Source: Psammoneis japonica (lineage: Eukaryota). From it: 64,000 nt of DNA. Made by a program: the position numbers and the translations under genes. Shown here piece by piece: positions 13,188 to 61,777 of this stretch. Below the pieces are notes generated by a model, which was given only the letters and a program-made list of their open reading frames with translations, was not told the origin of the DNA and made no database searches. Location: contig QPGO01000113.1 in NCBI GenBank assembly GCA_008632985.1, forward strand, positions 64,947 to 128,946. The letters are read 5' to 3'. Positions within the stretch are counted from its first letter, which is position 1, and every line of letters begins with the position of its first letter.

Positions 13188-13218
13188 TCCCTGCACTTCG
13201 CAGTTTGCAGTAAGCACC

Positions 13219-15186: not shown

Positions 15187-15585
15187 GGAGACTGCACTAC
15201 TTCCTGAATGTGATAACTGAAGAACAGAGTGATTGAGCGGTCTCGTGTTTATCGCTTGTAGTTGTCTCACTTTGTCTTATGTTTATTGCTTGCATATGTT
15301 GGCAAGTTTAGCGACATTTTTTTGCGATAATTTTTTTGTTTTAAAAGCAACAGTAAATTATTATTACACAATGACACATGGATAATGTATTACATGTAAT
15401 GTCCCAAATTGTCAAAGGAAGGACAAAATGTCACTTTTTTCTGGTTATGCAATGTTTTCATGTGTGTTCCTGGCATGACAACATTTTTAATTTGCATCAG
15501 CTCTCTAAACAAGAATCTACAGAAAGCAACATTGACTTTCAGTTATTTCGCACACCACCAAAAAAGCCACCAACAGTGCCATTTT

Positions 15586-16262: not shown

Positions 16263-16616
16263 CTTGTTTGCTGCATGTCTGCTGCATTGCATTGGGGCTT
16301 GTGCTGCAGTTAAACAGAGCAAAAAAATTCCTGTGCCTTGACATGTGTTTCCCAGCTTCCTTCAGAGTGGAGCACCAGTCACAAGAAACCTGAAAAGCGA
16401 GTGAATGGAAACCCAAACAGACGTGCAGGTGCGCTGGTTGCAAGAAACAACAGGTCTTTGGGGCGCACATTTTGAAAGTCAGCATTTTCTTGTTGTTGAG
16501 TTTTTTGCTGGTGTTTTTTCTTCTTGTCAGCAGCATGTTGACAACAGCCCTCCTCTCCAGCAGAAAGCATGGCAGTTGACTTCTGCCATGTCCTTGGTTC
16601 CCATTGATGTTTGCCA

Positions 16617-19600: not shown

Positions 19601-19903
19601 AACAAAAGGTGGCACAATCAATCCAGACATCCAGCGGCAAGGAGACTTGACAGTGACGTTAAATTCCTGCCGATGCCTGGCATTGAATGCACGCAGACTT
19701 GCCGATGTACGCAGAACATGTGCGGAGGTCCACGCAGAATTGAGGTGGCATCGTCTGTAAATCAACGACGACGATGGCGGTTGCTCAATGGGTTGACAAT
19801 GAGCAAGACTGTCAATCTGACAGAAATTGAAGGCAAATGGCAAGAATTCAAACAATGACTCCTTGCTGCTGTCCAAACAGCAGATGAGTCTCCGCTCAGA
19901 GAC
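16617..19903 (+). repeat. 86-bp direct repeat pair (16617-16702 and 19818-19903) bracketing a 3.1-kb segment
   Basis: TGACAGAAATTGAAGGCAA.TGGCAAGAATTC...CCGCTCAGAGAC occurs twice with about 3 differing sites. Confidence 0.9.
17440..18115. repeat. 42-bp tandem repeat, ~15 units (reads PPDWMPQVSHLETR on the - strand)
   Basis: Unit TTGGGGCATCCAGTCAGGAGGCCTGGTCTCGAGGTGCGAGAC repeated head-to-tail without spacers, degenerating towards 17440. Confidence 0.92.
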
Positions 19904-34900: not shown

Positions 34901-35383
34901 TCGAAACCTTTTCCTGTCACAGAAAATGGGAAAAGAGAATTTCAAGAAATCAGTTGGGCACTGCTTGTTGGATGAGGTGTTGTCAAGCGCAAACGCAAGT
35001 TTGCAAAAAGAGCACCACGGCGCACCCAGGCTTGCCGCGCAACTGATGATGGTGTGTTGAGGGCACCAAGAGGGTCCATGAATTTGGACCCACTCCCAAC
35101 TGGGAGGTCTGTAACATTTGGACCCGTTGCACTCGACAAGACGCACCGGTGCGCTGTTGCTTTTGCTTTCAAGTTTGCATCAACAGCGTCGCCGAAGGCG
35201 ATGTTGTCATGCTTCGAAGCGTTGCATGAATTTTCGAAATCACGTAGCCGCTGTAGAATTTGTATGGGGACAAAGATATAACGGTTGATCTTGCTCACTA
35301 TCAACATTTGAGAGCTAATTACATTTTATGCTAGATTGCGTAGAATCCTACTCCACATAGCGGCAGCGAAATTCCAGCCATAT
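31941..35383. mobile_element. Foldback / long inverted-repeat element (arms 31941-33794 and 33857-35383, 62-bp spacer)
   Basis: The arms are reverse complements from ATATGGCTGGAATTT... to ...CAACTTGGTG. The right arm lacks ~315 bp (33215-33530). Possible TA TSD. Each arm carries the same degenerate outward-reading ORF. Confidence 0.88.
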
Positions 35384-41432: not shown

Positions 41433-42117
41433 TTTCATTGACCACTCAGCAGTGTTGGTGGCTGCAGACTTTCATTGACCACTCAGTGGTTGGTGCTTGA
41501 AGACTTTTTTGTGGCAGTCCGTCGGGGAGTCCCTCACGCAGTTAGGGAATCCGCCACAATTTGAAGGTGTGTCTCCCGTGTGCATTTTTGAATGGCACAT
41601 GGGCTGCTCAGTGCAAATGAGCTGCTCAAATTCACGGAATGATCATTGAGGACATTAGAGTTTGTGGGGACTTCCTAAAAAATTGACAAATTCCCTGCAA
41701 TGGGTGCATGGAACTGTTTTTCAGAAGAGCTTGAAACTGCTGCAAAATTGGGGTTGCCGGCACAGCATGTTGAAAAATGCGCTCAGCTTTGTGTGAAGAA
41801 AATTTGCAACGAGTTGCACATGAATTGGTCAGATTGAAAAAAAAACATGTCAAACAACAAAAGTGAGTTTCTGCAATGTGCTGTTTTGGCAGCAAATTGG
41901 ACAAAAAAGAGTGTCCGTGCACTCTTGCCACAACCCCAAAAATGGCATGAGCCATCAAACACAATGGCCGTCTGTGTTGCTGGCGGCCCTGCCACCCTGC
42001 CGCTGCACAGGCACTGTGCAACAGCAACAAACAATGCAGGCACTGCATGACAGCACACACCCACACCCACAAAGAGAAAGACAAATGGTCAATGCTCCCC
42101 ACAGGTGCCTGGTTTTT
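41433..42117 (+). mobile_element. HINE/DINE-1-like element, copy 3 (diverged, TpA-depleted, duplicated 5' end)
   Basis: CATTGACCACTCAG at 41436 and 41473; TGGTCAATGCTCCCC...CCTGGTTTTT end; colinear with copies 1 and 2. Confidence 0.68.
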
Positions 42118-43461: not shown

Positions 43462-46400
43462 TGCAGCACGCGACTGTCATGTGCATGTTTGTGATTGTGT
43501 GTCATTTGTGTGTCAATCGCACCACAGTCGTGGATGCGTGCAAAGGACAGAACGATCACACAGAGTTGATCGGATGTCGAGAATTGCAAATGCGATCGAT
43601 TGACGCGCACCCGGACAATCTGTTGTCACGAATGTGTTCTCCGAAAGGCCTTTTGTCTGTAGAAGCAGTGCAGAAGCTTTGGGCCATTGAGAACTCGTTC
43701 GGAGAAACCAAAAATCACAGAGCAAAATTCAATCTTATAATTTCCACTTTTCGCACACTGTTCTACTTTCGTTTGCACTCGTTCTTTGAGCACAGTGCAT
43801 TGTGCACACACACCACAGAAGGTAAAAAGCACGGAAAATGAAAATTTTAACTAGTGTGCCTTTGCAAATTCTTCTACAAACAGGAACGAATCGCATCAGT
43901 TCTGCTGGAATCGATTTCCGAGCGGAAGAAGCTCAAGCCGAGCAGTGCCTCAAGATGGAACGCTGTTTTTCGTCTGCCAGACAAGAGGATTCGCTCCAAT
44001 GCGGTCCATTCCAAGCACCCAAGGATCAAGGGCTCTCAAGTGCACCGCATTGTCAAAAAATCTACACCAAGTCATGGTTGCAGAGAATGCAAGTTCCGAG
44101 TCGATCAGGTCCGAGAAATGCATCTGGCATGCAAGGAGAGACTGTTGGAGAGTTTTTGGAGACCGAATCAACGAGCCTCGAGTCCAAGAGCAAGATGGAA
44201 CCGTTGGAAAGTGCCTCAAGAGTCTCACATCTCATGTCTTTCCAAGAATTGCACTTCAGAATCAGAGTTGTTATTTTCAAGACGATCTGAAGAAACCAGA
44301 GCTGCTTGACAGCAAGAAAGCCTCTGTTAGACCCAAGAGGTCAATGATGAGAGTCTGTGCGACCCTCAGATGGATTCTAAGTCGAATCTAGTGGGAAACC
44401 GAGCGCTGATTTATCAGCTGTCACTCGCACCGCAAGGATGGCAGCATCAGTCTACTGTCCAAAACAATCAACTGTTGCAACTCATCCTTGATGAGCTGAT
44501 TAAGTTTTGAGTCATCTAAAGGTCGTTCATGACGTCCGTGACGAAAAAACATGTCAACTCAGGCTCTGACAGCGCAGTTGGTTCCAAAATAAAAAAGGTT
44601 CCAAATTTGGTTCCAAAAATGGTCTCCCACATGGTGCCAGAACAATCCAAAGTGAACGCAAGGTCTCATCTTTGAAAAAAGAATGCCTGCGTCACGGATT
44701 GAAGCCATTCTAAAAATGAACTAGCAAAAGAGTGCAAGGGTGACTCTGAAAGAGACCCAAAAATGCGCCGTTCAAATGGCAATCGCACGTGGTCGCGTCG
44801 CGACAACGAAAATGCTGCTCGCAAAAAAAGAGATGAATGTCATGATTGATCAGGCGGTTCAAAAAACACTCAAAGCGAGTTCCTTGAACAAAGAAAAAGA
44901 GCACAAGGGCAAAGAATCAGATTCTGGTGCCCTCAGTGAAGAAAAGTGCCAATTTGATCGGATGATCCAGACTGAATCCGAAGAATGATTTTGGTCTGTT
45001 CACGAATCACATGCTTTGCTGGATGTCAGGAAGCCCAGAAAAAAGGCAGAAATAATTCACACCAGTCCAGGAGTCATCATTTGCATGAACACTTCCTTGG
45101 GAAAGGAGAGAAAGAAAAAAAGCATCTGCGTGTTCCTGTCGACAACGGAACATCGTCAACCACAATTTTGCGCAAATTCGTGCGAAAGTTGAGAACACAA
45201 GAATCCGCCACCAAAAACTTGGGAAACCAAGGGTGAGCTCTTTACGACTGACAGCAAACACCGAATTCAGTTCTCACTGTGCGAAATTTAAGGCATGCCG
45301 ACATGCAAACAGCATGTGTTGAAAACACCAAATTTTCTTCAGGTTCAAATGATGTGATCATGGGACGCGACTTAATGTCCAGTCCTGCAAGTCACATTGG
45401 ACTGCGCAAATGAAGAAATCCAATGGGAAGAAGCAATCACCTTATGAAGAATGTTCACACACTCTTCGATGCCGATGTTTTCAAGCTGAAAACCGATCAC
45501 ATTGAAAAACATGACGCCGTGAATGGAGTCAATGACGGAACCAATGGTCCTCGACTCACATTGTCACGCCATCGATCTTAATCAAGTGACAACTGCGGCG
45601 ATGCATCTAACCCAAATGAACACAACCAACTCAATCTTCTTCTTAAGAGGTTGAAATCGTTTTGAAAAGTTCCTCAGACGAATGCATGGGAAGCACCAGT
45701 GGATCTCATCGTGGAAAATCTGACGCGATTCCACGACGCGTGAGAACCTTCTCCTGTCACAGTCTTTGGAGGCGTCCAATCAAAAGGAGTTTGACCTGTT
45801 GTGAAAGATTGAAGTCTTGAGAATGAAATTGCTCTGAACAAGTCGCTCTGAGACTCATTGTCTAAAGAAAACAGGTCGAGTTCGACCGCACCCGACACTC
45901 AGAAGCTCAGCACAAGGTTCGTGCAGGTGGTGCATCCTTTGCCCAACATTCAGGAAATGCTGTTGAAGCAAGAACGTTTCATGTGTGTAATCCATTTGAT
46001 TCAAACATGGAATGCCACCATGTCAAATAAAAAAAGCACACGTCGTGCTCACACGAAAATCATGCCGTGGGGAGAAAATGAGCACTGTGGACTTCCAATG
46101 AGAATCCACAGAGCCCCAGACATTTTTGTGCAACACTTGAGTGAACTCATGACAGGTTTGAAGTTGTCAGAACGACTGTGTGTGATCGTTTGTGCCTGAC
46201 AAAAGTAACTTCAAAATGTCACCTGCACAAGCAACAGCTTAATGCGGCATTCAAACGACTGGAACAGTCGCTTAGAAGGTTGACAACAAAAGTCCTTCAC
46301 TGTTTAACTTGAAATAAACTGTCAAGACTTCCATGCGCAACGACATGCAATCGATTGCAAAGAAAATGGAGGCGATTCAAGCAATCGCAACATGAGAAAA

Positions 46401-48164
46401 ACGTAAAGAACACTGCGACATCTCGTTGTCATACGTTGCCATTGTCAAGACATGTAGTCTCAACGATCTCCTGCACAATGCCAGCCAAATTCACCTCAAC
46501 AAAGGTCAAACGGCAAAAGTGCAAGTACGGAACGAAAAGTCTCCGAAAATGTGGAGCGCATCAAATCAAAAACCATGTTGTTGTCATGCACGGATTTCAA
46601 CATCACACGTTACAACGGAAAAAAGAACTTCTGTCCACAGTGAAAACACTCACAAAATTCCGAAACATGCTGTTTGGCCAACAGATTTGTGCATGTGCGG
46701 ATCACAAGACACAATGGACAAAGTCACACGTTGACAACTTCAGTCCCGAATTAGAGTGCAACGAGGGCAAGGCGAACATCGTCGCGACAGACGCGATCAG
46801 CCGACTTGCCACAGAAAATTGAATCCTACGACAATGTCCTGCCGTTAAAACGGGATAAAGACATTCCCTCCAAATTGTCGGGCGCGACATGTCATACGAA
46901 CACTTTTCGTGGAGGCGAGCGAGATCGAAAAATGCTCATGTCACAAGGACAAAATCGCCTTTTTAAAGGACGATTTAGGAAAAAACAGTGACAGATTGGT
47001 GCACATTATACGCACCCACTTCACACTGGCAAAAGACAATCTCACAACACCCGCACGGTTGCATTGTACAATGCACGAGGCAAGACATTAAAATGTGCAT
47101 CATGTCGACACACGAGATGTGCCAAAGATCTAGAAAAAGAAAAGAAAAATGGACATTTGTCCACTTGGTGCACGAAACCAGTGCCTTCGGAATGACAAAA
47201 TGACACCGGTGTGTCAGAAAGAAACGTCCAAATGATGATTAAAATCCAACTGACAGATGGTTGAAGTGCAAAAAAAAAAAAAAATCCATGATGGAATTCA
47301 CAACCATCACAGGATTGATTGTCAAGACGAAATGGTCATGACATCTTTGACCATCGTTTGTTGTCACTTATGAAATGTGGCAGTGCAGCAGAGCAATGTG
47401 GCACACAAAGTGAGCCCGCCAAACTACATGAAATCCACAAGCAAGCAAGTGAACGCCACAATTGAGAGCGCACATTAAGTGCTGGGCACGATGCCATGCA
47501 CAATCGACATCAGGAAAAACACTCACTCCAGGACAATCAGTCCTTGTGTTCACATCAACAAGAACGTCAATGAGAACACTCGACGCAATGCCACATGTGT
47601 GCACATTAAGTGAGAAACAAACAATGTCACTCTCAAAAGACATTCGGAAATTGGAACGGCCCCATGTTGCCCACACAAAACAACAACAGTCATTGCCAAC
47701 GGCACAACACAGTGAAAGTGGAGACATCATTGACACTGTCGATGTCCGTCGAATGATCCACTTACAAATGACTCCAATGTGCAATTAGGGAGGCGAATGC
47801 AGCATGCGACTGTTGCACACATGTTTATGATCATGTGTCATTTGTGTGTCAATCGCACCACAGTCGTGGATGCGTGCAAAGGACAGAACGATCACACAGA
47901 GTTGATCGGATGTCGAGAATTGCAAATACGATCGATTGACGATGTTGACATCTTGCGTGTCAACAGCAATCGTATCCGGACAATCTGTTGTCACGAATGT
48001 GTTCTCCGAAAGGCCTTTTGTCTGTAGAAGCAGTGCAGAAGCTTCAGGCCATTGAGAACTCGTTCGGAGAAACCAAAAATCACAGAGCAAAATTCAATCT
48101 TATAATTTCCACTTTTCGCACACCACTCTACTTTCGTTTGCACTCGTTCTTCGAGCACAGTGCA
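43462..48164 (+). mobile_element. Full-length degenerate Ty3/gypsy element (copy 2): LTRs 43462-43799 and 47798-48164, PPT 47787-47797, TSD CAGC
   Basis: Paired TGCA...TGCA LTRs, AGGGAGGCGAA PPT, 4-bp TSD (43458-43461 / 48165-48168), fragmented gag/pol closely matching copy 1. Confidence 0.92.
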
Positions 48165-48399
48165 CAGCAGTGTCTCTTGCTCATGCTGCAGCTGTTTCTT
48201 CATCTCAAGATGCAGCTGCAGTGACAGGAGGCAAATCAAGGGGCAGCAATTGATTCTTTCTGTCTCTCTTGTTTCTCTTTTCTTGAGAGATGCAGAGTGG
48301 AAACGAGGTGTGATGTGGCATCCAAAAAGAGTGGTGGTGGTGCCTCTGAAAAAAATGATGATGAACAGCATGTGATGCCACAAGGACTCAAGATTCCAC

Positions 48400-50700
48400 A
48401 CTCCAAATTCTCACATTGAGCTCACAAAAGAGCTTGCACAACAACTGCAAATGACTGCAATTGTGGTTGCAACAATGGCGCTTGCAACCAAACTGACCCT
48501 GCATGGCAAGTGCCAACTGTGATCTGGTGAACAGTTGCAACCAATGTTTTGCAGCCATTCTCTGCAACTTGAGGCCCCTGGAAAAATTCATTTTTTGCCA
48601 GCCACAATCTGTCTCCACTGCCTTTGTCTCTCCTGTCACACTGGGAGCCATCCTTGCCTTTGTGGCTGGCACCAAAGCCAAGCAAGGAGAAATGCACAAT
48701 CACCTCTGCAGAGCACACTTGCAAAATTGTTTTTCAGCTGCCACATGGCCACATTGAAAAGAAGTTGAAAAGCCACAAATCAGCTGCATGTGCCTCTGTG
48801 CTCTCTCACACAATTGTTTTCCCATGTGCTGCTGCCATCAGCCAAACCTTGGCTGCCACCTCCACCTGCTCCTGCGCCAAACCTGTTGAGGACAAGCACG
48901 GCACAAGCACCAGCAGAGTGGTCGTTTGGTCTCAACAAGAACAAAACAAAACCCAAAACCCATTTTTAAAAGTGCTGCTGCACTTCCACCCTGCAGCTCT
49001 GGCAGCAAGCTAACCTGCACCACTGCACAAAGTGTGACAGCTGGCCAGGATTGGCACCACAGTCAGGTGATGCCATGGCAAAATGACTTGCAATGGTGTG
49101 CACACCTCCAGCAGCCATGGATGCTTGACTTGAGCATGAAGCCATGGCCAACCAGTTGTGCACTCCATGGTGTGCCAAGCAAGTGAGGTGAGCATCAATG
49201 ACCAAGTTCAACAGATGCAACCTCTCCTTTGTCAAATGGTTGTCTGCTCCAGAGTGAAGTTGTGCCTTGACTTCCACCTCAGCATTGCAGTGCTGAGGAA
49301 ATTTCCCATTCTTGGTTGGAATCATGTCCATGAACTTTGTGTCATCATGTTGTGAGTCCCGCAGTTGCCAACACAGTTGCTGCCCAAAAATTGACCAACA
49401 GACAGCTGATGCCAGCCAATGCTGTCTCCCAAGAATGGAGTGTTTTGAGGACACTGCAGCAAAGGCCATTGTCAACGCAGATCATCTCCTCATGAAACCA
49501 ACACTTGAGAGCAGATCATGAAAGCAAGTCACACAAGGATGCAAACATGTGAGCATCATCACACTTCTTGTGCAAGTGGCCTTGAAGGAACTTTCGACAC
49601 TGGGCTTTTGTTGCAGCAGGGGCACTGGAGCATCATGTGATCTCCATCCTCCACAGGATGTTGACAATGTGCACCACAGTCAGGCAGGTGGGATTGTGCT
49701 GACAAATGATCTTGTTCATTGGCGACAAATCTCAGATGAGCTCAATTGCACTGTGACTTTTCAACAAATGTTTTGTGATGCAAGCTTGGAGTGGATGGGC
49801 CAATCAACAAATTTGAGGAGGATGTCTCACAACCAGCCACACTTCTTCTTCTTCTTCACATGCTGATGTGCAAGGTGGCAGGGCTGGAGAAGCTTCGCAC
49901 CAAAGAAAACAGGCTTGTGTTTGAAAGAGACAGAAAAATCTTGGGCAGCTGAGTTTGCAGAGCAGCAAGACACATGTGGAGCTGGAAGAGCATCCCCAGG
50001 TGCAGGCCTTGGTGACCACTTGCCAACTTGTCATCTTGGACATTTTGCTTGGCAGGAAGAGACAAAGACATGTGCAGGGCGGCATTTCATCATCTTTGTG
50101 TGCTTTGACCCAATGGACATCAACTGAAGAAGTGCCAGATTGTTGGCCCGCTGTTGATGACTCCACAATTTGCTGAAAGGAAACAAACACACTCGCAACA
50201 TGATGCCAATGAAAACGGTCTCTGTCTGCACTGGATGACTCCCCATTTTCAGGAGGTGGAGGCAGCAGGGCACCACAAAAGTCAAAAACATTCTGGACCA
50301 ACACAGAGTTGTCATCACAGTGCATGTCAGTGCCTCAGAGAAAAACCTGATTGCAAGATCCCACAAGTCAAAAAAGGATCTAAAGAAAGGAAAACAGTCT
50401 GGAAGCTGCAATGCTCTCAACTCTGCCAGCCTGCCAACACATGGGTTGCAATGTTTGCAGATGATCTGAGCAAGCATCCCAGCAACTGGCCAACAGCTTG
50501 TCTGGCACATCTGCCCTGTCTCCAAACCATCAAATTGAAGTTGATGGCAATCCACACACAGCTTGCATTTGACACTGTTCCCAATCAATTTCTTTAACTC
50601 AAGACACTCTTGTCAACAGCAAGAAGTGTCATGAACTTTTCCATGTCCCCGCAAATGCAAGAATCAACAGTTGGAAAAGCCACCACTTCTGGACACTGAC
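48400..50700 (-). mobile_element. Highly degenerate RNase H-containing non-LTR retrotransposon remnant
   Basis: VHWVKAHKDD (HWVKAHQD-like) and CD.NS.LV RNase H-like motifs, with a downstream IPT...P.C...E...HL knuckle-like segment; both TA and CG are nearly absent. Confidence 0.45.
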
Positions 50701-51227
50701 TGAACATGTCAAGAATCAAGAACAAAGATCATGATGCATCAACAGTTGTCATTGTTTGCTTCTCTTGTTTGCCACTTGCTTCAAAGGCGAATTTCAAATT
50801 GAGGAAAGGGCCCGCGTTGCACAAATCATCTGCCGGTGAGGCTCGGTCTACAGGTGTGCACTGTGCTCGAAGAACGAGTGCAAACGAAAGCACAACGAAG
50901 TTCAAAAGGTGAAAATTGTGAGAATTGTTTCTCAATGGCCTAAACCTTTTGTACTGCTCCTACAGACAAAAGGCCTTTCGGAGAATATGATCGTGACGAC
51001 AGATTGTCCGGATACGATTGACATTGACACGTAAGATGTCAACATCATCGTACGATCGCATTTGCGATTCTCGACATCCAATCACTTCTGTGTGACTGAT
51101 CTGTACTTCGTACGAACCCACGATTGACGTACGATTGAAATATACTTTTATTTAATATATACATATACATATATAATACGTACATGACAACGCATATTGC
51201 ATTCGCCTCCCTAATTGCACATTAGAG

Positions 51228-54200
51228 TCAGTCGTTAAACGGTATTATTCGACGAATATTGACAGTGTCAATAACGTTACCGCGTTTGATCTGTACTGTG
51301 CCATTAGTATGTACCGTTGTTATTACATACGGTCCAACATAGGGCTGTTCTAATTTTTGCGAGTCTTTCTCGAGTAGTATCTTTTCTCCTACTCTGTACG
51401 TGTAAGGAGTACGTCGAGCATTCTCTCGAGCGTTATTTTTATTTATGATTTCTTGTTTTCGCTGCTGGATTAATTTCCAGTCCGCGACATGTTGGACGTT
51501 AAATATCATGTCTCTATTGAAGACTAGTTGTCCTGGTGTAGCTTGCGTAGTAGTATGATACGTAGAACGTACTGCAAACGCTACCGCTGATAGTATTCCA
51601 GCGAAAGGATCCTCAGCATCTAGAGGTGTATGTTGCAAATCAAATGTACGGAGCATGTTCCCCAGTGCTTGATGTACGCGTTCAATAATTGCGTTTGCTT
51701 GTGGATTTCGTGTAGTTGTGGGCTTGACTTTAATGCCACAATCATCTTGCACCATTTCTCTAAATTGGTGTCCGATGAACTCACTTCCACGGTCACATGC
51801 AATTGACGATGGCCAAGGATGTCTGCTTGGCCATGTTCGTTCTAACAGTCCAGCCACAGTTGTGGACTCCTCATTTGGGATTTCCACAACTTCAAACCAT
51901 CCGGTTGCTGGATCGATCATAGTTGGACATTTCAGGACTGGGGGGTTTTCCTTTCCCTCACGACGCACTTTGCATGGCCCAATGAGGTCCACACACAGTC
52001 GTTCCCATGGTGCGGATTCTGCACACTCAGGAGGTAAATGTCCACATTTCTTGTGTTTCTTTTTGAATTTTTGGCACGTCTCACATCTCGACATGCATTT
52101 TCGTATGTCTTCACGCAAGGTGGACCACCACAGGTGTTGTGAGATTGTTTCTTCTGTTCGATCCATGCCAGGGTGAAGAAGGCACGTGTGATGCCAATCC
52201 ATCACTGCCTTTTGTGACGTCCTCGGGACGACAATTTTGTCCTTGTGACATGTGAGCAACCGGTCTCGCTCGCCTCCACGAAAAGTCTTTGTGTGAAACG
52301 TCTTTATTTGACAATTGGGAGAGAATGTCTTTGTCCCGTTTTTGTTCACAATCAAGAACTTTGTAATTTAACGGAAAGACATTGTCGCAGGATTTTGGCA
52401 GGACCTTTTCAGCTGGCTCTTCTGTGCTGAGGGTTTCCACAGGTTCTATTTTCTTCATGGCAAGTCGGCCAATCGCGTCTGCGACAACATTTGCCTTGCC
52501 CTCAAGGTGTGTCATTTTGGGACTGTGTTCTTCCATTGTCAGACGCCAACGCATGACTCTGTCCGTTGTGAAATTTTTGTGTGTGAGATTTTTGTGATCC
52601 GTGTGTGTGTTTGTCTGTTGGCCAAACAGCACATTGCGGAACTCTTTCAATGTCTCCACTGTGGACAATGGCTCTTTTTCCATTGTGGCACAACGCGTCT
52701 GCGCTCCATTCAGCTTGCGGCTGTAGAAGGCAATTGGTCGGTTTTTCTGAGCAATGACCGCCCCCAATTGAGAATCACTGGCATCGGTGCATGTCTCAAA
52801 GGGGACATTTCGGTCCATTGCCACTTTACTTGGGTAGAAGTGAGTTTGGCTAAAGGAGCTAAAACATGAGATCGTCGAGGCCACATGTCTCGACAGCAGT
52901 TGATCATGCCGACAAAGCGTCGCAATTCCTTGCGAGTTTTAGGAGTTGCGATCGCGTGAATCGCTTCTGCTTTTTTTGGAATCGGACTGATGCCCTTGCG
53001 GGTGATGTGAAAGCCCAGACAGTCCACTTCGGGTTTAGCGAAAAAGGACTTCTCGGCGTTGACCTTCAATCCGGCTTGTTCTAGGCGCAAGAACACCGTT
53101 TCAAGCTTCTTGAGGTGGTCTTGAAAATCACTTTTTGTAAGACACAACACATCGTCAATGTAAGTTCTGACAAACTCCAGACCTGCCATGAGCTCACTCA
53201 TGTGCTCTTGGAAAACATCTGGAGCTCCACAGATTCCCATCGGGAGTCTGCAGCACTCACATTTGCCCCAAGGCATGACGATCGTGCACAAGCGACGCGC
53301 ATGCGGCGTCAATTCGATGTGATGGCATCCCATGTTTAAATCTAGGGACGTTGCATGCATGAAGCCTTCAAGCTTCTGTGGCACATCCTGAATGTTGGGT
53401 GGAGGAAACGGAGTGCAAATTAACCTCTCACTTGGCTCACGAAAGTCGGGTGAGAACCGAACTCTACCATTTTTCTTGGGTTGAATGAAGGTTGGAGCCG
53501 CCCATTCAGAACAATTTGTTTTTCTTGAGACTTTCAACTTGCATGGTCTTTCAACCTCCTTACGAGCAGTCGCCTCCAAGGCTTGTGGCACGGGAAATGG
53601 TTTGGCATGATGCGGACTCACGCCCGATTTCAACTTTAAATCCACCGGTTTCCCGGTCCATTTGCCTGGAGAACCATCGAAAAGGTTTTCAAATCTTTTT
53701 AAGAGGAAGTTCAGCTGCTTCTGCTCTTCAGGAGTTAGATGAGCAGCTGCTGCGGTCACATCATTGAGGTTTGCAGCGTGACAGTCTGAGTCAAGGATCC
53801 GATTGACCCTGTCATTAAGACCAATCACTGCATGAGATTCCTCAATGTGATCGGCAATCAACTTAAAAACATTGGCATCGAAGAGTGCACCAACATTCTT
53901 CATGGGAGCAGTTGCATCTTCCCATTTAATCTCTTCATTCGAGAAGTCCAATGTCATCCCAAGACTTGACATTAAGTCGCGTCCCATGATCACATCATGA
54001 CGACTCGAAGAAGAAGGGGAGTTGTCAACATGTGCCGTTGTTTCAATCATCTTATGTTTGTCAAATTCGGGTGAGGAGAATTGGATCTTACATCGACTGT
54101 CAGTCGTGAAGAGCCCTCCTTTGGTTTCCCAGAGTTTGGTGGCGGATGCTTTTGTTCTGAGTTTCCGCGTGAATTTGCGCAAAATTGTGGTTGACGATGT

Positions 54201-54356
54201 TCCGCTGTCGAGGAGAACGCGCAGAGGCTCATTTTTCGCCTTGCCCAATGAAGCATTCACATGGGCGACAACTGCTGGACTAGTGTGAATTACTTTGGCC
54301 CTTTTTCTGGGCTTCCCAATGTCCAGCAGAGCGCAAGACTCCTCTTGCAGTGCAAG
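51228..54356 (-). pseudogene. pol: pol of gypsy copy 3 (PR-RT-RH-IN), frameshifted and hypermutated
   Basis: LLDSG protease, YIDD RT, TDAS/IAFYSRKL RNase H, H...LHPG..C..C and D-D-E integrase, GPY motif. Deletion/frameshift near 52810 and frameshift near 52300. Confidence 0.9.
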
Positions 54357-55513
54357 TCATTCCTCAGAATCACTGCGCATCATTTTTTCAAACTGACAAT
54401 TTTCCTCGTCAAGGGCATCAGAATCACAATCTTTGCTCTTGTGTTTTTTGTCATTGTTCGAAGAACTCGCTTTGAGCATTTTTTGAACTGCTTGGATCGC
54501 CACAGCATTCAACTCTTCTTTGCGAGCGGCGTTGTCGTTGTCGCGACGAGACCACGTGCGATTGCCATTTGAACGGCGCCGTTTCGGGTCGGGTTCACAG
54601 TTCCCACGGCGTTCTTTTGCAAGTCTTTTGATCGACCAGCACTTGTCCGTGTTATGAGTGGATTTCTCGCATGAAATGCACCACTTCTCGGACTGAGATT
54701 TTTCGGTGCCATGTTGGTGACCATTTTTGGAACCACGTTGGGAACCACTCTTGGCTTTTGATGCAGCACCGCCACTGCCATCAGCCTTGGCATGAATGCC
54801 ATCAAATGTGTCTTCTGCGACCTCTGGGCGCTCCAAGAACTCAACCAACTCGTCACAGGCATGTTTCAAAATTTCGAAACCCTGGACGGTCGACTGACGC
54901 TGCCACTTTCGAGGTGCAAGGTTGAAGAGGATGTCCTTGAGCTCGTCGTCCTCGATCTTCTGTTCCTTCCCAAAGGGAGGATAGAACTTGAGGTCTTCGT
55001 TGACTTCCTGGACCCAAGCAGCAATTTCGCGTGCTTTCATGGACTCCGGCTTCTTGAGATCACGACGCAAACAACGTTTCTGTGCCGAAAGTGCGTTCTT
55101 GGGAAACACATGCCTCGTGAGATGTTGCAGGCATTTCTCGAAGCTTCCTTCCGCAGATTCGTCTTCAAGGTTCGCTGCCGCATTCTCGAAAGCACGTAGA
55201 GCGTCTCCTTGAAGTAACATGTGCATGAGACGAAACTTGTCAGATTGCTTCCTGATGTTCTGGCCCACTGGAAGTTGATCGTAGCTCTTGAGAAATTCGA
55301 TGAACTTGGGGACACCTTGTTTCTTGTAGTGCTCAACATTGATGGTGCAGGTGCGGCTATCCTTCTTCTCGGGATGAAAACGTTGCTCCATCTTGAGGTG
55401 CTGGCTCGGTTTGAGGCTCTTCGGCTCGGAGTTCGATTCCAGCGGTTGAGGGACGATTTTCTCCTGCCTTGACGAAGTTTTGGCATTGGTTGCATGAGGT
55501 GAAAGCTTCATCT
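54357..55513 (-). pseudogene. gag: gag of gypsy copy 3
   Basis: LLQGDALRAFE...LTRHVFPKNAL..QKR(Y>C)LRR.LKKP capsid-like segment and WC..C....HNT..C knuckle; TA-type missense changes. Confidence 0.8.
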
Positions 55514-58500
55514 TGAACTTATTACCTTCTGTGGTGTGTATACACAATGCACTATGCTCGAAGAACGAGTGTAAACGAAAGTATAACGAAGTTCAAAAGG
55601 TGAAAATTATGAGAATTATTTCTGCGCAATCATTTTGGGTTTCTCCGAACGGGTTCTCAACAGCCTAAACCTTTTGTACTGCTCCTACAGACAAAAGGCC
55701 TTTCGGAGAATATGATCGTGACGACAGATTGTCCGGATACGATTGATATTGACACGTAAGATGTCAACATCATCGTACGATCGCATTTGCGATTCTCGAC
55801 ATCCAATCACTTCTGTGTGACTGATCTGTACTTCGTACGAACCCACGATTGACGTACGATTGAAATATACTTTTATTTAATATATAGATATACATATATA
55901 ATACGTACATGACAACGCATATTGCAGGTGAACCGCGCCGGATCGGATCGACGGATCGGATCGCGTCAGAATTCCGTTAGTCGACAGGTGGAACCGGATC
56001 GGATCGCGGATCGGATTCGACATTTTGATGAGTCGCAAAACGACATAAGTTTCAAGATTCCAAACTCCCAAGAACAACAAAGCGCTGACAACAGCGAACA
56101 ACAAGAAGTGTGGCCATGATGCTTCACATCTTGTCATAACGTGACGATATGACGACAGAACCATACTGTTATTACTGCTATACATACATATGAGACCGCA
56201 TCATTGAGAATCGTTGTCACTCAGTGTTCGCAGCAACGCTAAGGAAGAAAAAGCTATCACTTTTGTAATTAGGAAACTAATGCAAATGTTTTCGTATTGA
56301 AATTTCGAATTAAATAATAAATACTTGTTATTTTGCTTATTCAATGTTTCTCCAACAAATCTATACGGCATTATCGGTTTGACAAGCTATTCTATTGCCA
56401 TGCGACCTTTCTCATCGTCATTTCGAGCATGGGAAGACTTTGACTATAATGCTCAGAATGTTCCTTGCCCTTATGGCTGAATCTTATGCCGTTCTGTGTC
56501 ATAATCGTGTGATGTTGTGCCATTGTCGTGATGACGGCACGGAATCTTCAAAATTGGATCCGACATCCGATCCGAGATGGCGGATCAGTCCCACGAAGGC
56601 CACGGATCGACTTTTTGACTCGATGGACTAACATTTTAATGGGTTATGAAGGAGTCGATCCGGCGATCCGATCCGGCTCGGTTCACCTGTAGACCGAGCC
56701 TGAGACCTTGCACCTTTGCAACTTGTGCCAGATGTGCTGCCATTCTGTCTCATCTGGTTCCACAAGACAAAGACCAAATGTGTCAAGACTCTTTGCATTT
56801 TAACTGCCTTCATTCTTGGCTCAACAAAAGAAAAACACCCAGGATGGAAGAATCTGACCGGCGGACCTTTGCAAAGCAGCTGCTTGAGCACTCTGATGAA
56901 TGATGGGCTGTTCTTGAAGCTGCAAAAAGTCCTTTTCTGCCTGGACACTTTCTTGTCTTCACTTGGAACATCCTCGTCCAATGATGTTTCTGCTGCTGCC
57001 ACAATGGCAAAAAAGTGTCTCCATTGGAGAACTCCAATTGTTTTTGCCAACAACAGTGCCCAGCAGGGGATCTGTGGCAGGGTGTCATGTGAGAGCTGTG
57101 TTGTTGGAAAATGAAATCTTCCTGCTGATGTCGAACTGATCAAGATTGTCTGGGATCATGGGATGGAACAACCCAACACTGCCAGCACCAAATCCAAAGT
57201 CCTCCATGGAAGTTAGTTTTCTTTGGGGCTGGGCACAAAAAATTGCACGCGCATGATCTCAAAGCAAGTGGGCGGCAGTTGTGATTTTCTGGGGGGCTGC
57301 CGTGTTCTGTTGCCTGGCATCCAAGCAAGTGCAACCTTTTTTTTGACAAGTTTTTTCAAGAGACTTGAGTTGCACATGGTTTTGGCAACATGTTTGTCAG
57401 TTGACATGATGGCATCACATGCCTGGCCAGTCTGATTGAGTGCATTGATGGATCCCGCATGGCGACCCATGATTGGAACAATGACCATGCATGGCAAAAC
57501 ATCAAGGCAGTTTTTCTGACCAGCTGGCAGCATCTTTTTGAAATCCATGTGTGCTTGATGCCTGCATCATTGACTCTGTTTGCTTTTGTGCACTTTTTGT
57601 TTGACCCGTGGAGGAGACAGGTTGTTTCAGACCAACTGCGTTGTTGATCAACACCAAACAAAAAATCCTTCACAAACCAGAAGGAAAGGGCAGCTGTTTC
57701 ACCCACCAGAACAAGATGAGCAATTTCCACTTCATGGCTGTGTTGCTCCCCAAAAGCACGTTTGTTCTCAAAATGGCCTGTCGGCTTTGGCTCTGGGAAC
57801 TTGTGCGGGTTTGTCCATCAAATCATGTGTTGGTGCCACATGTTGTTTGTGCACAGCTTTGTGCACACACTTGTGTGGATTGTTGGTGATGAGACGGACA
57901 GCACATGTTCAACAGGCTTCAGTTCTTTGCTGCTGCTGTTGTTGTTGCTGCACGCAGCTGTCCAGTGCTTGGATTTTGATTGAGTCAAATTCGATTGTTC
58001 CATTTGGCATTCTGCTGACTGGTTTTTGTCATTTTTGCCATTGTTCTCTTGATGGTTGATCGCATCAGAATCTGCTTGAGCATTTGCATCACACACCCCA
58101 TTGCTGACCAACAATTCATTGATCAGGGCAAAACAACTGCCGAACGAAATTTCCCTTTTGTCAACAAGAGAACAAAAAAGCTCATCTTTCTGAGCTTCCA
58201 ACAGTGTCAAGTCTCTTGTTGTCACCTTCAGAGCCCTGGCATCATCTTCTGCAGCTTCCTCCATGCTGCAGCACAGGTGCTTTTTGTCAAGAGTGTTCAA
58301 CAGCAAATCTTTGGCACTCTGCTCCAGTTCCAAGTTGTTGCTGTTCTTGTTGGTTCTTGATCAAAGAACATTGACTGCAGCTGGTTCGGCAATGTTTTTT
58401 GCTTCATTCCCAGCACTGCAAAGCACAGCACTGGAAAAGGAAAACAAGCAAGAAGGAGCCAAGGTTGGAACAAACAAGGGCTCAACAGGCATTGAGAATT

Positions 58501-59046
58501 GGAGAAGGAGACACACAAGAAGAGATTGAGCAAGTCAAAGATGCAGAGCAATTTGACAAAGTGTGGTCCAAGGAATTTTGGGAATGCATTGACAGCCCAG
58601 AAGCCACCATGATGGACAGGATGGGCAACAAGACAACAATGGAGGACAATGACAACATTGATGAAGAGGAGTTGTGTTGTGTGGAAGCATCGCAGACAGC
58701 AGCAGTGCAGCAATTGGAGCGATGATTCACAATGAAAGGTGAGACAAGAAACAGCTGATTGCCAATGTGAAAAGGGAGCCAAACAGCAAACAAAAACCTG
58801 AAGCAACAGCACACTGTGCAGTGGGGTTGCATTGAAGTCCTCCATGTTGCATGACAACCAGACATGGTGGGCACAGCTGTGTGAAAAGTCAGCACACCAG
58901 CGTGACAAATGCCCAAATTAAAATGAGCTGGGACCCACAGTTCTTGCAGCAGAGTGTGGTGCTGGCTTGAGGTGAAAAAATTCATTTTTTGCCATCCACA
59001 CTCTGGCAGTTTTTGGAGTTGGTGTTGCGCGCATCTCCACCATCTT

Positions 59047-60897
59047 TGTTGGAACATCAGGGTGCAAAGAGTGATTTTTGCAGAACAGACAGACAATGTT
59101 GCAGTGAGCAATGCACTGTGAGGAGCATTGATGCCATTGTGCTCACAACTCATGTCAGTCAGGGGTCTTGTGCTCACTTTTTAGCTTCTGCACCCAGTTG
59201 ACATGGTGGTGGCAGCAATGGCAACAAAAGTGCATTTGCAATCCATGTGGCAAGTCAGGGTTGGTGAGACTGAGCACACACCAGCTGGCAAGTGGCAAAA
59301 TCTCAACACAGAAGCTGAAAAGGACCAGCTGGGAAGTTGTCAGAAATCCAAAAGGCGCAGCTCATGTCAATGGATTGTGGCACAAACAAGCTGGCTGGAT
59401 GAAGGCAGAGAAACAGTCTCTGGCAGAGAACCTTGCTGTGAGGAAGCTGTCAAGGGTCTGCCAAAAGAGGGTGTGGCAAAGTTGTGTCAGACTGGGAAAA
59501 ACATCAACTTGAGCAAGGATTGCGCAGCTGAGTGCAGAAGCACAAAAGATTTGAAGGAGTGTGTGCATGACACTCATTGCCAAGTTGGGTTGACAGGCAG
59601 ATGGTCACACAGAGACCACAAGAAAAACAAGCTGGCATGTCAGAACAATGTTTGGGTCAGCAACAATGTGCAGGTGCTGGTGTCTCTCAGGCAGGAGAAC
59701 AAACCAGCAGAGGAGCCAGAGTGTCCATTGAGCACAGCTGTGCTGGAGAAGGAAAAGGCAATCTGGGAAAGCAATGCAGTCATTGTGTGAAACAGGATGC
59801 AATCTACAAGACACAGAAGGTGAAGACATTTGGCACAATTGTGGGACAGTGCATGAAGGCTGTCCATCACAAGAGGTTGAAGCAGAGTGGCAGAGTTTGA
59901 GAGGGTCACAAAGGAGTGGGGCATGGCTGGGCACTGTTGAAAAAGCTCAAGTCAATCTTTTTTGAGATGCACATGAGAGAATCTGCATGAATGTCCAGAC
60001 AGCAGTTGGTGCTGTTGGGAATCCTCAAGTGGATCTTGTTTGAAGCAAGCAAGAGAATGTGCTTGCATGTCCAGGCTGCCAAGGCTTGGAAGGAGTTGGT
60101 CCTCATTCATCAGGATGAAGGAGAGGTGCTTCAAGATTGTTGCAATTGTTGGCTTGTGAGCATCCTTGAGATGGTGGAAGGGCCCTGCAGCAGACTTGTC
60201 CCAGAAGAAATCACCAAGAAAGAAGATGGGTTGGCAAAAGTGCTGATGACAACCAGAAGAATGAAAGGAACAAGTTGTTCATGGTGCTGCCAGTCAAGGG
60301 CACCAAGGAGTGTTGATGCATCTTGAAAAACCTGCGCCAGCAGTTCACACTGGGGATCAACAATTGCCCCAATTTGGCTGAGGAGGCACTGCAGGTGTTG
60401 GACACATGCAGAGCTGACAAGAAACATGAGCTCATGAGCTTTGTGCAAAATGAGAAGAAGCAGCTCAAATGCTGGAAATGTGACAAGGTTGGGCATGTGA
60501 AGAGGAACTGTCATTTGCTCAATGATGATGATGATCATTTGTCAGTGGAGTTGGAACATGTCAGCCATTGGGATTGACAAGGCAGTTGACTTGGTGTTGG
60601 ATGAAGTGGTGGTTTCCAACTGCCATCCTCCTCTGAGGAGTGTGTTGGAACATCAGGGTGTGAAGTGGTTTTTGCAGGACAGACAGACAATGTTGCAGTG
60701 AATGATGCACTGACAAGTGGTGTTGATGACTTGACAATTTTGTCTTTGCAACTCATGTTGAGTTGTGGGTCTTTTGCTCACTTTTTAGTTTCTGCACCCA
60801 GTTGACAGAGAAACAGCAGTGGTGTCAACAGAAATGTGTTTGCAGTCTACACAGTGAGCCAGGGATCTGCAAAACTGAACACACACCAGCTGGCAAG
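59047..60897 (+). mobile_element. Degenerate gag-only copia (CoDi-like; TR-GAG-like) element with ~245-bp LTR-like repeats (59047-59291, 60643-60897)
   Basis: Direct repeats start TGTTGGAACATCAGGGTG; GAGGAGTG PPT precedes the second; gag remnant TLGINN(Y>C)P...EALQVL and CWKCDKVGHVKRNC knuckle; no room for pol. TSD not found. Confidence 0.55.
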
Positions 60898-61208
60898 CCA
60901 CGCATGTGCACCATAGAAACACGTGCACATGTCACCAGGATGTCTCCACTCAGCCAAAAAAGCTTTGCCCAATGCTGGGATCACCTGTTGGCTGGACGCC
61001 ACAAACAGCAAGTTGCTGCCTTGTTGGGGTGTGACTCATTGATTTTCCAGGTTGAGCTGCACCACACTTGCAGTGCTGCAACAATCTTGTTGGAGGGACA
61101 AAATCATTTTGTCTGTTGGGACATTGCAAAGCCATCTGATGGAAGTGTGTTGCGATCTCTGAGTTTTGCAAATTCCATCGATGACAACAAGCAAGAGCAC
61201 TGCTCAAC

Positions 61209-61635
61209 AGACTGGCTCTGCAAAGGTTTCAGATTCTGAGAAATTTGGTTTGCAGGAAGCTTTGCAAAATGTGACCTCTCCTGCACGAATCAACATTGAG
61301 AAAGAGAACCAACACGTGCAGCAAGTGTTTCCGCTTGAAGGCAAAGCAAATGTGAGTGCCAGAAACAAGGAGTGCTGAACCAAGATGAACAGACTTCAGA
61401 GTCACTGCTCGCGACTTGGGGTGTTCCAACCTGCTTGCCGCACTGATGGTCTGTCGTGTACAACAAGACGGCCATTGGCTGGCCCACAATAACAAAGAAA
61501 CAAACCCAGAAGACAATGTTTGGCATGCCAAGCAGCCTCTGAAAAAAGTACTTTGTGATTGCCACCAGAGGAAACATCATGCCAACAAAGGACCAAGGGC
61601 GGATTACATGGAAGGGGATGCAAATGAGAAGATCG
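61209..61635 (-). pseudogene. Degenerate tandem duplicate of the DGAT1 3' coding end and 3' flank (template 61653-62072)
   Basis: Reads LLICIPFHVIRPWSFVGMMFPLVAITKYF...NIVFWVCF...GQPMAVLLYT, with indels relative to the gene. Confidence 0.85.
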
Positions 61636-61777
61636 GACCAGCGCCACTCAAAAGACTGGAGAAAGGTTTCAGATTCTGAGTAATCTAGACCGCAGGAAGC
61701 CTTGCAAAACGCGACCTCTACGTACATCAGCATTAGGAAAGAGGACCAACAAGTAGCATTTCGGCTCAAAGATAAAA

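What the first reader, a model, noticed from the sequence alone, without database searches (positions are those of the whole stretch)
48165..50836. Sequence specificity: surviving TpA sites are almost all YTAR
Seen: the few TAs left in old domains are TTAA (42205, 43220, 43407, 48967, 50595), CTAA (49011, 50381) and TTAG (43132, ~57213, ~59182, ~60786), with rare GTAA/CTAC. ATAT, GTAC, GTAT and ATAC are gone. Inference: a TA with a 5' purine or 3' pyrimidine is susceptible and YTAR is resistant. This is an enzyme-like fingerprint. Established for comparison: TadA-derived editors favour TA contexts, and Pol eta favours WA>WG.
Basis: partly seen in the sequence, partly recalled or inferred. Interest (0 to 1): 0.7.

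Follow-up and report, generated by a model that had tools for sequence, protein, structure and literature searches.

The report
Sequence motif of diatom TA-erasing mutator
In this diatom, a targeted process rewrites TA steps in silenced repeat DNA to TG or CA; it prefers an A that sits between a T and a following C or T and spares TA steps beside runs of A, which is a fingerprint that candidate enzymes can be tested against.

Summary
The bias is real but graded, not YTAR-or-nothing. The interval holds 4 TA against 181 expected, all YTAR. In old domains YTAR makes up 48 of 69 survivors (window) and 265 of 464 (39 other 10-kb stretches), against 18% in ordinary DNA; RTAY is nearly gone (14 of 464).

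Thirty Ty3 copies and 43 copies of a non-retro element give rates and direction: RTAR goes to RCAR and YTAY to YTGY (85 vs 19 sites; held-out 25 vs 3). The single-strand target is therefore T-A-Y with the A changing, best in ATAT and worst in TTTAAA. CTAG survives no better than GTAA.

Pol eta fails: AA>AG is no higher than CA or GA, transversions are about 0.4%, and there are no same-strand clusters. Rare non-TA hits keep the 3'-pyrimidine bias (40/9510 vs 7/13161).

Closest known: TpA hypermutation in Bigelowiella (bioRxiv 2026), whose main text reports no flanks. The motif resembles TadA, but the enzyme is not identified, and a lesion on the paired T cannot be excluded. The scan noted this motif earlier on other pieces of this genome.

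The parts
48165..50856 (.). Old TA- and CG-erased repeat-derived domain (the finding's interval); 4 surviving TA; no Pfam match in six frames
   Evidence: one 70-77% relative on C38, also erased, and a short segment (about 70-200 bp) with about 40 partial matches
48966..48969 (+). Surviving TTAA (in TTTTTAAAA, the most resistant context)
49010..49013 (+). Surviving CTAA
50380..50383 (+). Surviving CTAA (CTAAAG)
50594..50597 (+). Surviving TTAA
41500..43461 (.). Left part of the same old domain, split from 48165 onward by a Ty3 insertion (4-bp target duplication CAGC)
43462..48164 (+). Ty3/gypsy-type LTR element A (LTRs 43462-43799 and 47798-48164); TA-depleted with CpG largely kept (TA o/e 0.13-0.25, CG o/e 0.74-1.06 over 44001-48000)
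50857..55926 (-). Ty3/gypsy LTR element B (integrase, RT; 4-bp target duplication GGTG); member of the 30-copy set used for rates; LTR pair 97.5% alike with 25 of 25 TA kept
50940..51712 (.). Protected (unmutated) tract of element B, with a sharp edge to the mutated interior
56800..61400 (.). Second old TA- and CG-erased domain (7 TA in 56900-61300, 4 of them YTAR)
12528..13195 (+). Unmutated copy of a ~660-bp non-autonomous element with short imperfect terminal inverted repeats (MITE-like); used as the non-retro test family
15585..16262 (-). Erased copy of that element: 26 of 29 TA became CA (15) or TG (11); the one kept is TTAG
41463..42116 (-). Older erased copy of that element (TA and CG both lost)
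15600..21150 (.). Further TA-erased domain used in the window tally
25200..28150 (.). Further TA-erased domain used in the window tally
32250..35150 (.). TA-erased fold-back repeat used in the window tally

Best explanation
SHOWN: after insertion, TpA steps inside sharply bounded chromosomal domains of this pennate diatom are converted by single A:T>G:C transitions, one site at a time and on either strand, until few TA remain. The rate depends on flanks. On the strand whose A changes the target is T-A-Y. The 5' T is nearly obligatory (roughly 100-200-fold over A, C or G). Relative to A, position +1 gives T 3.8, C 3.4, G 1.6; +2 not-A gives 1.6-2.0; the base 5' of the T is best as A (others 0.5-0.65). 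A TA is safe only if both strands read T-A-R, and safest if both read T-A-A(-A), which is why TTAA, TTAG/CTAA and above all TTTAAA are left. I put this sequence rule at about 0.93. INFERRED: a nuclear adenine deaminase of the TadA/ADAT or ADAR-like fold, confined to silent (probably CpG-methylated) chromatin, turns that A into hypoxanthine, which is copied as G. It acts distributively, on duplex or briefly opened DNA, not along long single-stranded tracts. The 3'-A protection may be an A-tract resisting base opening rather than direct readout. The stated confidence is for the whole, enzyme class included.
For: Rates: survival in mutated tracts of 30 Ty3 copies, 247 sites: ATAT .025, ATAC/GTAT .085, ATAG/CTAT .085, GTAC .099, ATAA/TTAT .152, CTAC/GTAG .184, CTAG .325, GTAA/TTAC .342, CTAA/TTAG .513, TTAA .618; position weights with site bootstrap. 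These rates rank the survivors in 155 kb of unrelated depleted DNA (Spearman 0.985), and a one-parameter decay fits far better than no context or steady state (G 32 vs 582 vs 156). Same order in 27 mutated of 43 non-retro copies. Purity: TA outcomes CA 1919, TG 1892, TA 982, CG 32, other 14. Off-target A>G in mutated tracts keeps the 3' rule: VAY 40/9510 vs VAR 7/13161, p = 1.5e-9; intact tracts 2/4218. Copies mutate independently (median direction concordance 0.59 over 301 pairs). No same-strand clustering beyond 10 bp. CpG>TpG is 4.8-fold higher in the same tracts (86/5326 vs 9/2648). TadA editors are highest after T, higher before C and lower before A (PMC8989541, passages). The same dinucleotide process was measured de novo in B. 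natans, with an A-deaminase proposed (bioRxiv 10.64898/2026.01.13.699255). The genome encodes ADAT2, a plastid-type TadA, an ADAT1-like gene and a second ADAR-like editase without dsRBD.
Against: Sequence cannot tell whether the lesion is on the A or on its paired T. No dedicated or expanded deaminase was found: 9 PF00383 and 5 PF14437 matches collapse to an ordinary set, and the ADAR-like gene is pan-diatom, while 16 of 16 metagenomic relatives of this Ty3 family are not TA-depleted (TA o/e 0.55-1.12). TadA editors rank 5' A lowest, whereas here AA = CA = GA, and the 5'-T selectivity is far stricter than in ABE8e. A 2023 review states that no natural DNA adenine deaminase is known (PMC10661471, passage). 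The six-position model explains only 44% of site-level variance in survival. The held-out 5' part reproduced the direction but not significantly the survival order (Spearman 0.49, p = 0.15; 50 sites, only 1 TTAA and 2 CTAG). The decay fit is imperfect (G 32 on 8 df, GTAA over-predicted). Methylation itself was not measured.
Confidence: 0.5

Rival explanations
1. The lesion is on the thymine of R-T-A (the same base pair): an enzyme deposits a modified T (for example an oxidised or O4-alkylated T) in silent domains, and it mispairs with G.
For: Every sequence result fits equally, because T-A-Y with A>G and R-T-A with T>C are one base pair. CpG decay is co-localised. The genome gives 27 C5-methylase matches, and diatom DNMT4 is RID-related with unknown function (PMC9998398, passages). 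Hydroxymethyluracil at TpA in dinoflagellates is recalled, not from a call.
Against: No Tet_JBP match in the genome (but its controls were also blank, so this is weak). The only thymine-dioxygenase-like hit examined is a free-base-type 2OG enzyme fused to a guanine-deaminase-like domain. The near-pure transition spectrum suits inosine better than oxidised T (inference).
Confidence: 0.2
2. A TpA-specific adenine mark (6mA-like) is laid in silent domains and is then deaminated, enzymatically or spontaneously, in the way 5mC decays at CpG; the motif would be the writer's.
For: Distributive hits on both strands with no clusters, whole-domain saturation with boundaries shared between independent copies, and a palindromic dinucleotide target. 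ATAT is the best site and 3' T the best flank.
Against: TAC is nearly as good as TAT, while AAT, CAT and GAT are about 100-fold lower, so this is not the ApT-type 6mA recalled from ciliates and early fungi. I did not search for MT-A70 genes.
Confidence: 0.13
3. Error-prone gap filling by a Y-family polymerase (eta- or iota-like) after repair of deaminated 5mC makes A>G at TA.
For: CpG decay is raised in the same tracts; five Y-family loci are present; WA is the Pol eta hotspot (PMC6423074, passages).
Against: AA>AG is not above CA or GA (p = 0.65) and is 47/8352 against about 40% per A at TA. Transversions are 14 of 3857 changes. There is no same-strand coordination at 11-1000 bp in saturated tracts or among 141 mutations in lightly hit tracts. 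TA loss is not higher near CpG (residual survival vs nearest CpG rho -0.08, p = 0.2; CpG within 10 bp if anything protects, rho 0.15). Young copies lose 80% of TA and under 10% of CpG.
Confidence: 0.09
4. The flank bias is not enzyme readout but DNA mechanics: the mutator sees only TA, and A-tracts or stiff steps limit base opening. (Compatible with any of the chemistries above.)
For: Protection grows with the 3' A run: TA followed by at least 3 A is 13.7% of survivors vs 2.2% in ordinary DNA; +1 A 51% vs 22%, +2 A 54% vs 26%. Alternating purine-pyrimidine RTAY is most labile. Slow opening of A-tract base pairs is recalled.
Against: The bias is strand-directional within one TA step (85 vs 19), 3' G is also disfavoured relative to C and T, and the 3'-Y rule holds at non-TA off-target sites.
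Confidence: 0.3
5. Survivors are newly regenerated TA sites, compositional leftovers, selection on coding sequence, or an assembly artefact.
For: Old domains are slightly rich in T/A runs (P(Y before T) 0.56-0.58).
Against: Markov expectation 31-33% vs 57-70% observed. Steady-state model G 156 vs decay 32. The same order is seen directly in aligned copies and in non-coding as well as coding parts. Contigs of run X1 agree with the interval.
Confidence: 0.03

Closest known systems
TpA hypermutation of integrated NCLDV and virophage DNA in Bigelowiella natans (Mettrop et al., bioRxiv 10.64898/2026.01.13.699255; parts 1-4 of 5 of the text read; figures and supplements not seen)
   Same: A:T>G:C transitions confined to TpA, on both strands (TpG and CpA), in bounded regions of foreign or mobile DNA; not tied to copy number (their NCLDV is single-copy); an adenine deaminase is proposed but not shown.
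   Different: Here a diatom, with about 40% of sampled DNA erased to TA o/e near 0.05 (their NCLDV Rho 0.45); targets include LTR elements, a MITE-like element and gene duplicates. The main text has no occurrence of 'context', 'flank', 'trinucleotide' or 'diatom', so the TAY motif, the A-tract protection, the off-target rule and the lack of strand clusters are not stated there; Fig. 2B or Table S2 may show flanks. They measured a de novo rate; I could not.
TadA-derived adenine base editors (ABE8e, ABE8.20-m; PMC8989541, passages)
   Same: Clean A>G; best after T, better before C, worse before A.
   Different: Engineered, Cas-guided and acting on R-loop single strands. Their 5'-T gain is 25-52%, against roughly 100-fold or more here; 5' A is lowest for them, equal to C and G here; here 3' T is as good as 3' C.
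Repeat-induced point mutation (RIP; RID/DIM-2) of ascomycetes (features recalled; search listings)
   Same: Dinucleotide-specific, transition-only, post-insertion saturation of repeats; diatoms have RID-related DNMT4 (PMC9998398).
   Different: Opposite direction (creates CpA/TpG from TpA). Not simply homology-driven: 16 of 43 copies of a multi-copy element are untouched, and a linked 97.5%-identical LTR pair is intact while its interior is erased.
Polymerase eta WA>WG mutagenesis in somatic hypermutation (PMC6423074, passages)
   Same: A>G at TA.
   Different: No AA component, almost no transversions, no strand-coordinated patches.
ADAR A-to-I editing (5'-UAG; PMC10661471, passages)
   Same: 5' U/T preference; base flipping from a duplex; repeats as targets. 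A dsRBD-less ADAR-like gene is present.
   Different: 3' preference here is Y, not G; changes are in DNA, on both strands of the same copy, and also in a non-retro element.

Membership tests
B. natans-type TpA hypermutation | Almost only A:T>G:C transitions | tested here: met
   CA 1919 + TG 1892 + CG 32 vs 14 other outcomes
B. natans-type TpA hypermutation | Restricted to TpA, on both strands | tested here: met
   80% of TA lost vs 105/23736 non-TA A>G; per-copy TG share 0.40-0.60 in all 29 copies that have a mutated tract
B. natans-type TpA hypermutation | Confined to bounded regions of foreign or mobile DNA | tested here: met
   Sharp tracts in copies; genes keep TA
B. natans-type TpA hypermutation | De novo rate about 1000-fold raised, active in only some lines | not testable with these tools
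   Needs mutation-accumulation lines
B. natans-type TpA hypermutation | Same flanking motif or same enzyme | not testable with these tools
   Their mutation table (S2) is in supplements that are closed for bioRxiv; the main text gives no flanks
RIP | C:G>T:A at CpA | tested here: not met
   Direction is T:A>C:G; non-CpG C>T is 18/16815 in mutated tracts
RIP | Triggered by sequence homology; linked repeats most exposed | tested here: not met
   16 of 43 copies intact; LTR pair of element B intact, 25 of 25 TA. Caveat: intact copies are somewhat less diverged (2.2% vs 3.9%), so age may contribute
RIP | Needs a RID/DNMT4 methylase; premeiotic | not testable with these tools
   27 PF00145 matches present but not classified
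Pol eta WA mutagenesis | AA>AG raised along with TA>TG | tested here: not met
   18/7948 vs 29/14723, OR 1.15, p = 0.65
Pol eta WA mutagenesis | Patch synthesis giving same-strand clusters near initiating C lesions | tested here: not met
   Same-strand share 0.50 at 11-1000 bp, equal to null; no gain near CpG
TadA-fold adenine deaminase signature | 5' T best; 3' C favoured; 3' A disfavoured | tested here: met
   vs PMC8989541 passage
TadA-fold adenine deaminase signature | 5' A the worst neighbour | tested here: not met
   AA = CA = GA off-target; counts are small (47 events)
TadA-fold adenine deaminase signature | Inosine intermediate and an enzyme active on DNA | not testable with these tools
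   ADAT2 and TadA genes present; activity unknown
ADAR-type editing | 5'-UAG preference (3' G) | tested here: not met
   +1 G 1.6 vs C 3.4 and T 3.8
ADAR-type editing | Acts on the RNA stage, hence one strand of a retro-copy | tested here: not met
   Both strands in each copy; non-retro element equally hit

The most novel reading that the evidence does not exclude
The T-A-Y fingerprint is that of a natural, chromatin-guided DNA adenine deaminase (a native adenine base editor, perhaps ADAT2/3 or the dsRBD-less ADAR-like diatom protein). It acts distributively on duplex DNA in silenced domains, has rewritten about 40% of this genome, and is the same genome-defence system that acts in Bigelowiella, which would make it an unrecognised SAR-wide counterpart of RIP.
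Probability: 0.3. Interest if true: 0.9.

Novelty: new variant of a known kind. Interest (0 to 1): 0.62.

Why it matters
A 2026 preprint left the enzyme behind TpA hypermutation open and, in its main text, gave only a dinucleotide. A quantified, strand-resolved motif (T-A-Y; worst TTTAAA; off-target V-A-Y; no clusters; no AA component) turns that into a direct test. A candidate enzyme must reproduce a 16-value rate table, the Bigelowiella mutation list can be checked for the same table, and Pol eta and RNA-stage ADAR editing are already excluded. If the agent is a natural DNA adenine deaminase, it is a long-sought activity relevant to genome defence and to base editing. In practice, the process removes TAA/TAG stops and raises GC in dead repeats, which misleads gene prediction and repeat dating in such genomes.

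Tried and rejected
Literature: 'diatom + transposable elements + TpA + hypermutation' gave 0 papers. Searches listed no paper on TpA loss in diatoms; and one search returned the Bigelowiella preprint. These searches cover open-licence PMC and bioRxiv only. Searches for a TadA 3'-context source failed; PMC12398605 and PMC13403082 (passages) were not useful.

Enzymes: a TET/JBP search was blank, but so were its controls. The PF00383 and PF14437 searches found no expanded deaminase family. The deaminase-2OG-oxygenase fusion looks like a free-base enzyme and is pan-diatom, so it was not pursued. The ESM Atlas look-up of the ADAR-like family gave only A_deamin clusters.

Other organisms: 16 of 16 metagenomic Ty3 relatives are not TA-depleted (assemblies favour young copies). 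The viral-contig scan found no relative. No RNA holder was listed. Run X2 gave no laid contigs. Contigs of the same sample showed no usable TA polymorphism in the interval.

Models: proximity to CpG and nucleosome-scale periodicity of residual survival gave no clear signal. Per-copy TA loss vs CpG loss was not significant (rho 0.27, p = 0.18, 26 copies). The interval's original identity was not recovered (0 Pfam families in 6 frames).

Rows dropped: 15 of 262 Ty3 sites (likely CpG-origin or gained TA); copy L049 (98% concordant with L046); changes shared by 4 or more lightly hit copies; sites without a gap-free 8-mer context (240 of 247 kept); C20 stretch missing and 2 N-containing 500-bp windows skipped. 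Only the best-scoring 40 candidates per genome search were scored (of 535, 389 and 153), so the oldest copies are under-sampled.
Full report
SETTING. The window lies at C115:64947-128946 of a 91.4-Mb eukaryotic assembly. A DUS3L-like gene has its best named relatives in pennate diatoms (Mayamaea, Amphora, Seminavis). Genes have TA o/e of about 0.5-0.8. Repeat-rich blocks drop to 0.01-0.1 with TG and CA up to about 2. The finding's interval is an old erased block, continuous with 41500-43461 before a Ty3 element inserted between them (target duplication CAGC). A second, inverted Ty3 copy starts at 50857 (duplication GGTG). The interval has no Pfam match.

THE OBSERVATION. All 11 listed sites are as stated. 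The interval has 4 TA against 181.5 expected, all YTAR. In six old domains 48 of 69 survivors are YTAR, 18 mixed and 3 RTAY, against 248 of 1383 in the rest of the window and 33% from local flanks. In 39 fixed-position 10-kb stretches from other contigs, 155 of 389 kb are deeply depleted. Their survivors are 265 YTAR, 185 mixed and 14 RTAY of 464, with 0 ATAT, against 17.6% YTAR in ordinary DNA. The bias is real; 'almost all' overstates it. Contigs of run X1 reproduce 48260-50883 with one difference; X1 may be the source sample, and its library is not on record.

DIRECTION OF THE PROCESS. An intact copy of a ~660-bp element (12528) and its erased copy (16261) show 26 of 29 TA turned into CA or TG. 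Thirty copies of the Ty3 family all keep about 170 CG over 3.5 kb but range from 38 to over 200 TA. Site by site, each copy is a mosaic of untouched and saturated tracts with sharp edges, and the choice of TG or CA differs between copies (median concordance 0.59 over 301 pairs). The changes therefore arose after insertion, independently in each copy. Outcomes in mutated tracts are CA 1919, TG 1892, TA 982, CG 32 and 14 others.

THE MOTIF. Survival runs ATAT .025, ATAC/GTAT .085, ATAG/CTAT .085, GTAC .099, ATAA/TTAT .152, CTAC/GTAG .184, CTAG .325, GTAA/TTAC .342, CTAA/TTAG .513, TTAA .618 (247 sites). Two strand rules would both spare YTAR: 'A of TAY changes' or 'A of RTA changes'. They predict opposite directions at mixed sites. 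RTAR goes to RCAR and YTAY to YTGY at 85 sites against 19 (p = 4e-11), at 25 against 3 in a held-out part of the element, and at 13 against 2 in the non-retro element. The target is therefore T-A-Y on the strand whose A changes. A competing-risk model gives, relative to A: +1 T 3.8, C 3.4, G 1.6; +2 1.6-2.0 for any non-A; -1 0.50-0.65 for non-A; -2 C 0.66 and T 0.58. The +1 term gives the largest gain in fit. These rates rank survivors in the unrelated genome sample (Spearman 0.985), and longer exposure (x1.65) fits much better than steady-state regeneration or no context (G 32, 156, 582). The non-retro family repeats the order (ATAC 0, ATAT .01, GTAC .11, CTAC .20, ATAA .25, CTAA .66; 28 sites, 27 mutated copies). 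YTAR is not one class: CTAG equals GTAA/TTAC (p = 0.54) and is below TTAA+CTAA (p = 0.04). The top surviving hexamer is TTTAAA, and TA followed by 3 or more A is 13.7% of survivors against 2.2% elsewhere. Limits: the model explains 44% of site variance, and the held-out survival order was not significant (rho 0.49, p = 0.15; very few YTAR sites).

WHAT THE SPECTRUM EXCLUDES. Transversions are negligible. Neighbouring hits are not on the same strand more often than chance at 11-1000 bp, either in saturated tracts or among 141 hits in lightly touched tracts; immediately adjacent hits show only a slight excess (0.521 vs 0.508 +/- 0.007). TA loss is not greater near CpG. This argues against patch resynthesis and against processive editing of long single strands or cDNA. 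Both strands per copy, and a non-retro target, exclude RNA-stage ADAR editing; ADAR's 5'-UAG (PMC10661471) also has the wrong 3' base. Rare non-TA A>G events are raised in mutated tracts and keep the 3' rule (VAY 40/9510 vs VAR 7/13161, p = 1.5e-9; intact tracts VAY 2/4218), as expected of one agent with a strict 5' T and a softer 3' Y preference.

TARGETING. Sixteen of 43 copies of the short element are essentially untouched and 27 are saturated; a few are hit only at one end. Flanks hold 51 TA in 1584 bases beside intact copies and 24 in 2062 beside erased ones. In element B the 97.5%-identical LTR pair is intact while the interior is erased. Tract edges recur at the same element positions in independent copies. 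CpG>TpG is 4.8-fold higher inside mutated tracts, and the oldest domains have lost both TA and CG. I infer guidance by silent, probably methylated chromatin rather than by homology. Methylation was not measured, and intact copies are a little younger (2.2% vs 3.9% background divergence).

ENZYME. The favoured reading is adenine deamination. TadA editors are best after T, better before C and worse before A (PMC8989541, passages), and inosine gives a clean transition. But the A of TAY and the T of RTA are one base pair, so a thymine lesion fits the sequence equally. The genome holds ordinary candidates: ADAT2 (L066), plastid-type TadA (L063), dCMP deaminases, RibD, a guanine-deaminase-like/2OG-oxygenase fusion, an ADAT1-like gene, and a second, ADAR-like editase without dsRBD that has intact zinc motifs and is conserved across diatoms. 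There are also five Y-family polymerase loci, 27 C5-methylase matches and no Tet_JBP match (controls blank). None is singled out. Sixteen metagenomic relatives of the Ty3 family are not depleted, so the process is not a property of the element lineage.

COMPARISON AND NOVELTY. The closest described case is TpA hypermutation in Bigelowiella natans (bioRxiv 10.64898/2026.01.13.699255; parts 1-4 of 5 read): the same change, the same dinucleotide, regional, ADAT2 proposed. Its main text never mentions flanks or diatoms; Fig. 2B and Table S2, which I could not see, may. I learned of this paper from earlier scan notes. My searches found no diatom report. Earlier scan notes on other pieces of this genome reached the same YTAR/TAY reading. 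I had derived TAY before seeing them, and they are not independent support. It works like the Bigelowiella system and passes every testable feature of it; shared enzyme and shared motif are untested. It is not RIP, not Pol eta and not RNA-stage ADAR. Recalled, not from calls: general RIP features, hydroxymethyluracil at TpA in dinoflagellates, ApT 6mA in ciliates and early fungi, slow opening of A-tract base pairs.

VERDICT. Observation partly confirmed (real, graded); interpretation partly supported (one TAY rule with A-tract protection; Pol eta rejected; TadA-like but unproven). New variant of a known kind; interest 0.62.

Noticed in passing
L221:1372-3085 (G000 C79:344.2-345.9k): A second A_deamin gene besides the ADAT1-like one: ADAR-like editase with no dsRBD, HAE/PCG/CSDK motifs intact, lacking the RTK motif, conserved across centric and pennate diatoms. 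Function unknown.
   Followed up: partly
L065:313-1785 (G000 C79:87-89k): Guanine-deaminase-like domain fused to a DIOX_N/2OG-Fe(II) oxygenase (best PDB hits TropC and thymine dioxygenase, E about 1e-20); fusion conserved in Attheya, Chaetoceros, Cyclostephanos and Seminavis.
   Followed up: partly
L075-L077, L081, L084, L087, L088 (C301, C297, C28): Several duplicated C5-methyltransferase copies lie in TA-erased DNA (0.9-6.8 TA/kb), while other DNMT genes keep normal TA: gene duplicates are hit too.
   Followed up: no
Ty3 family, L031-L060; window 50940-51712: Two recurring protected zones: LTR plus 3' UTR (about 0.1-0.9 kb) in some copies, and the integrase region (about 1.1-1.95 or 2.34 kb) in others; some copies have both or neither. 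Edges recur across independent copies. Unexplained; may mark open chromatin or promoters.
   Followed up: partly
L066:1351-1953 (G000 C26:119.7-120.6k): ADAT2 has a long insertion (about 80 aa instead of about 30) between HAE and PCxxC.
   Followed up: no
window 12528-13195, 15585-16262, 41463-42116: A ~660-bp MITE-like family with at least 45 long matches; one intact copy overlaps the 5' end of the DUS3L open frame.
   Followed up: partly
window 61222-62072: Tandem duplication across a domain edge: the copy nearer the erased domain lost 9 TA to TG/CA relative to the outer copy.
   Followed up: no
window 31941-35383: Large fold-back repeat (1277-bp arms 88% alike, with an inner 595-bp palindrome), TA-erased with CpG only partly lost.
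   Followed up: no
window 15600-61400 (erased domains): Loss of TAA/TAG stops leaves many spurious long open frames on both strands in erased domains, a trap for gene prediction.
   Followed up: no
L046 and L049; L061 and L062: Near-identical loci on different contigs (C295/C26; C41/C317) suggest haplotigs or segmental duplicates in the assembly.
   Followed up: no
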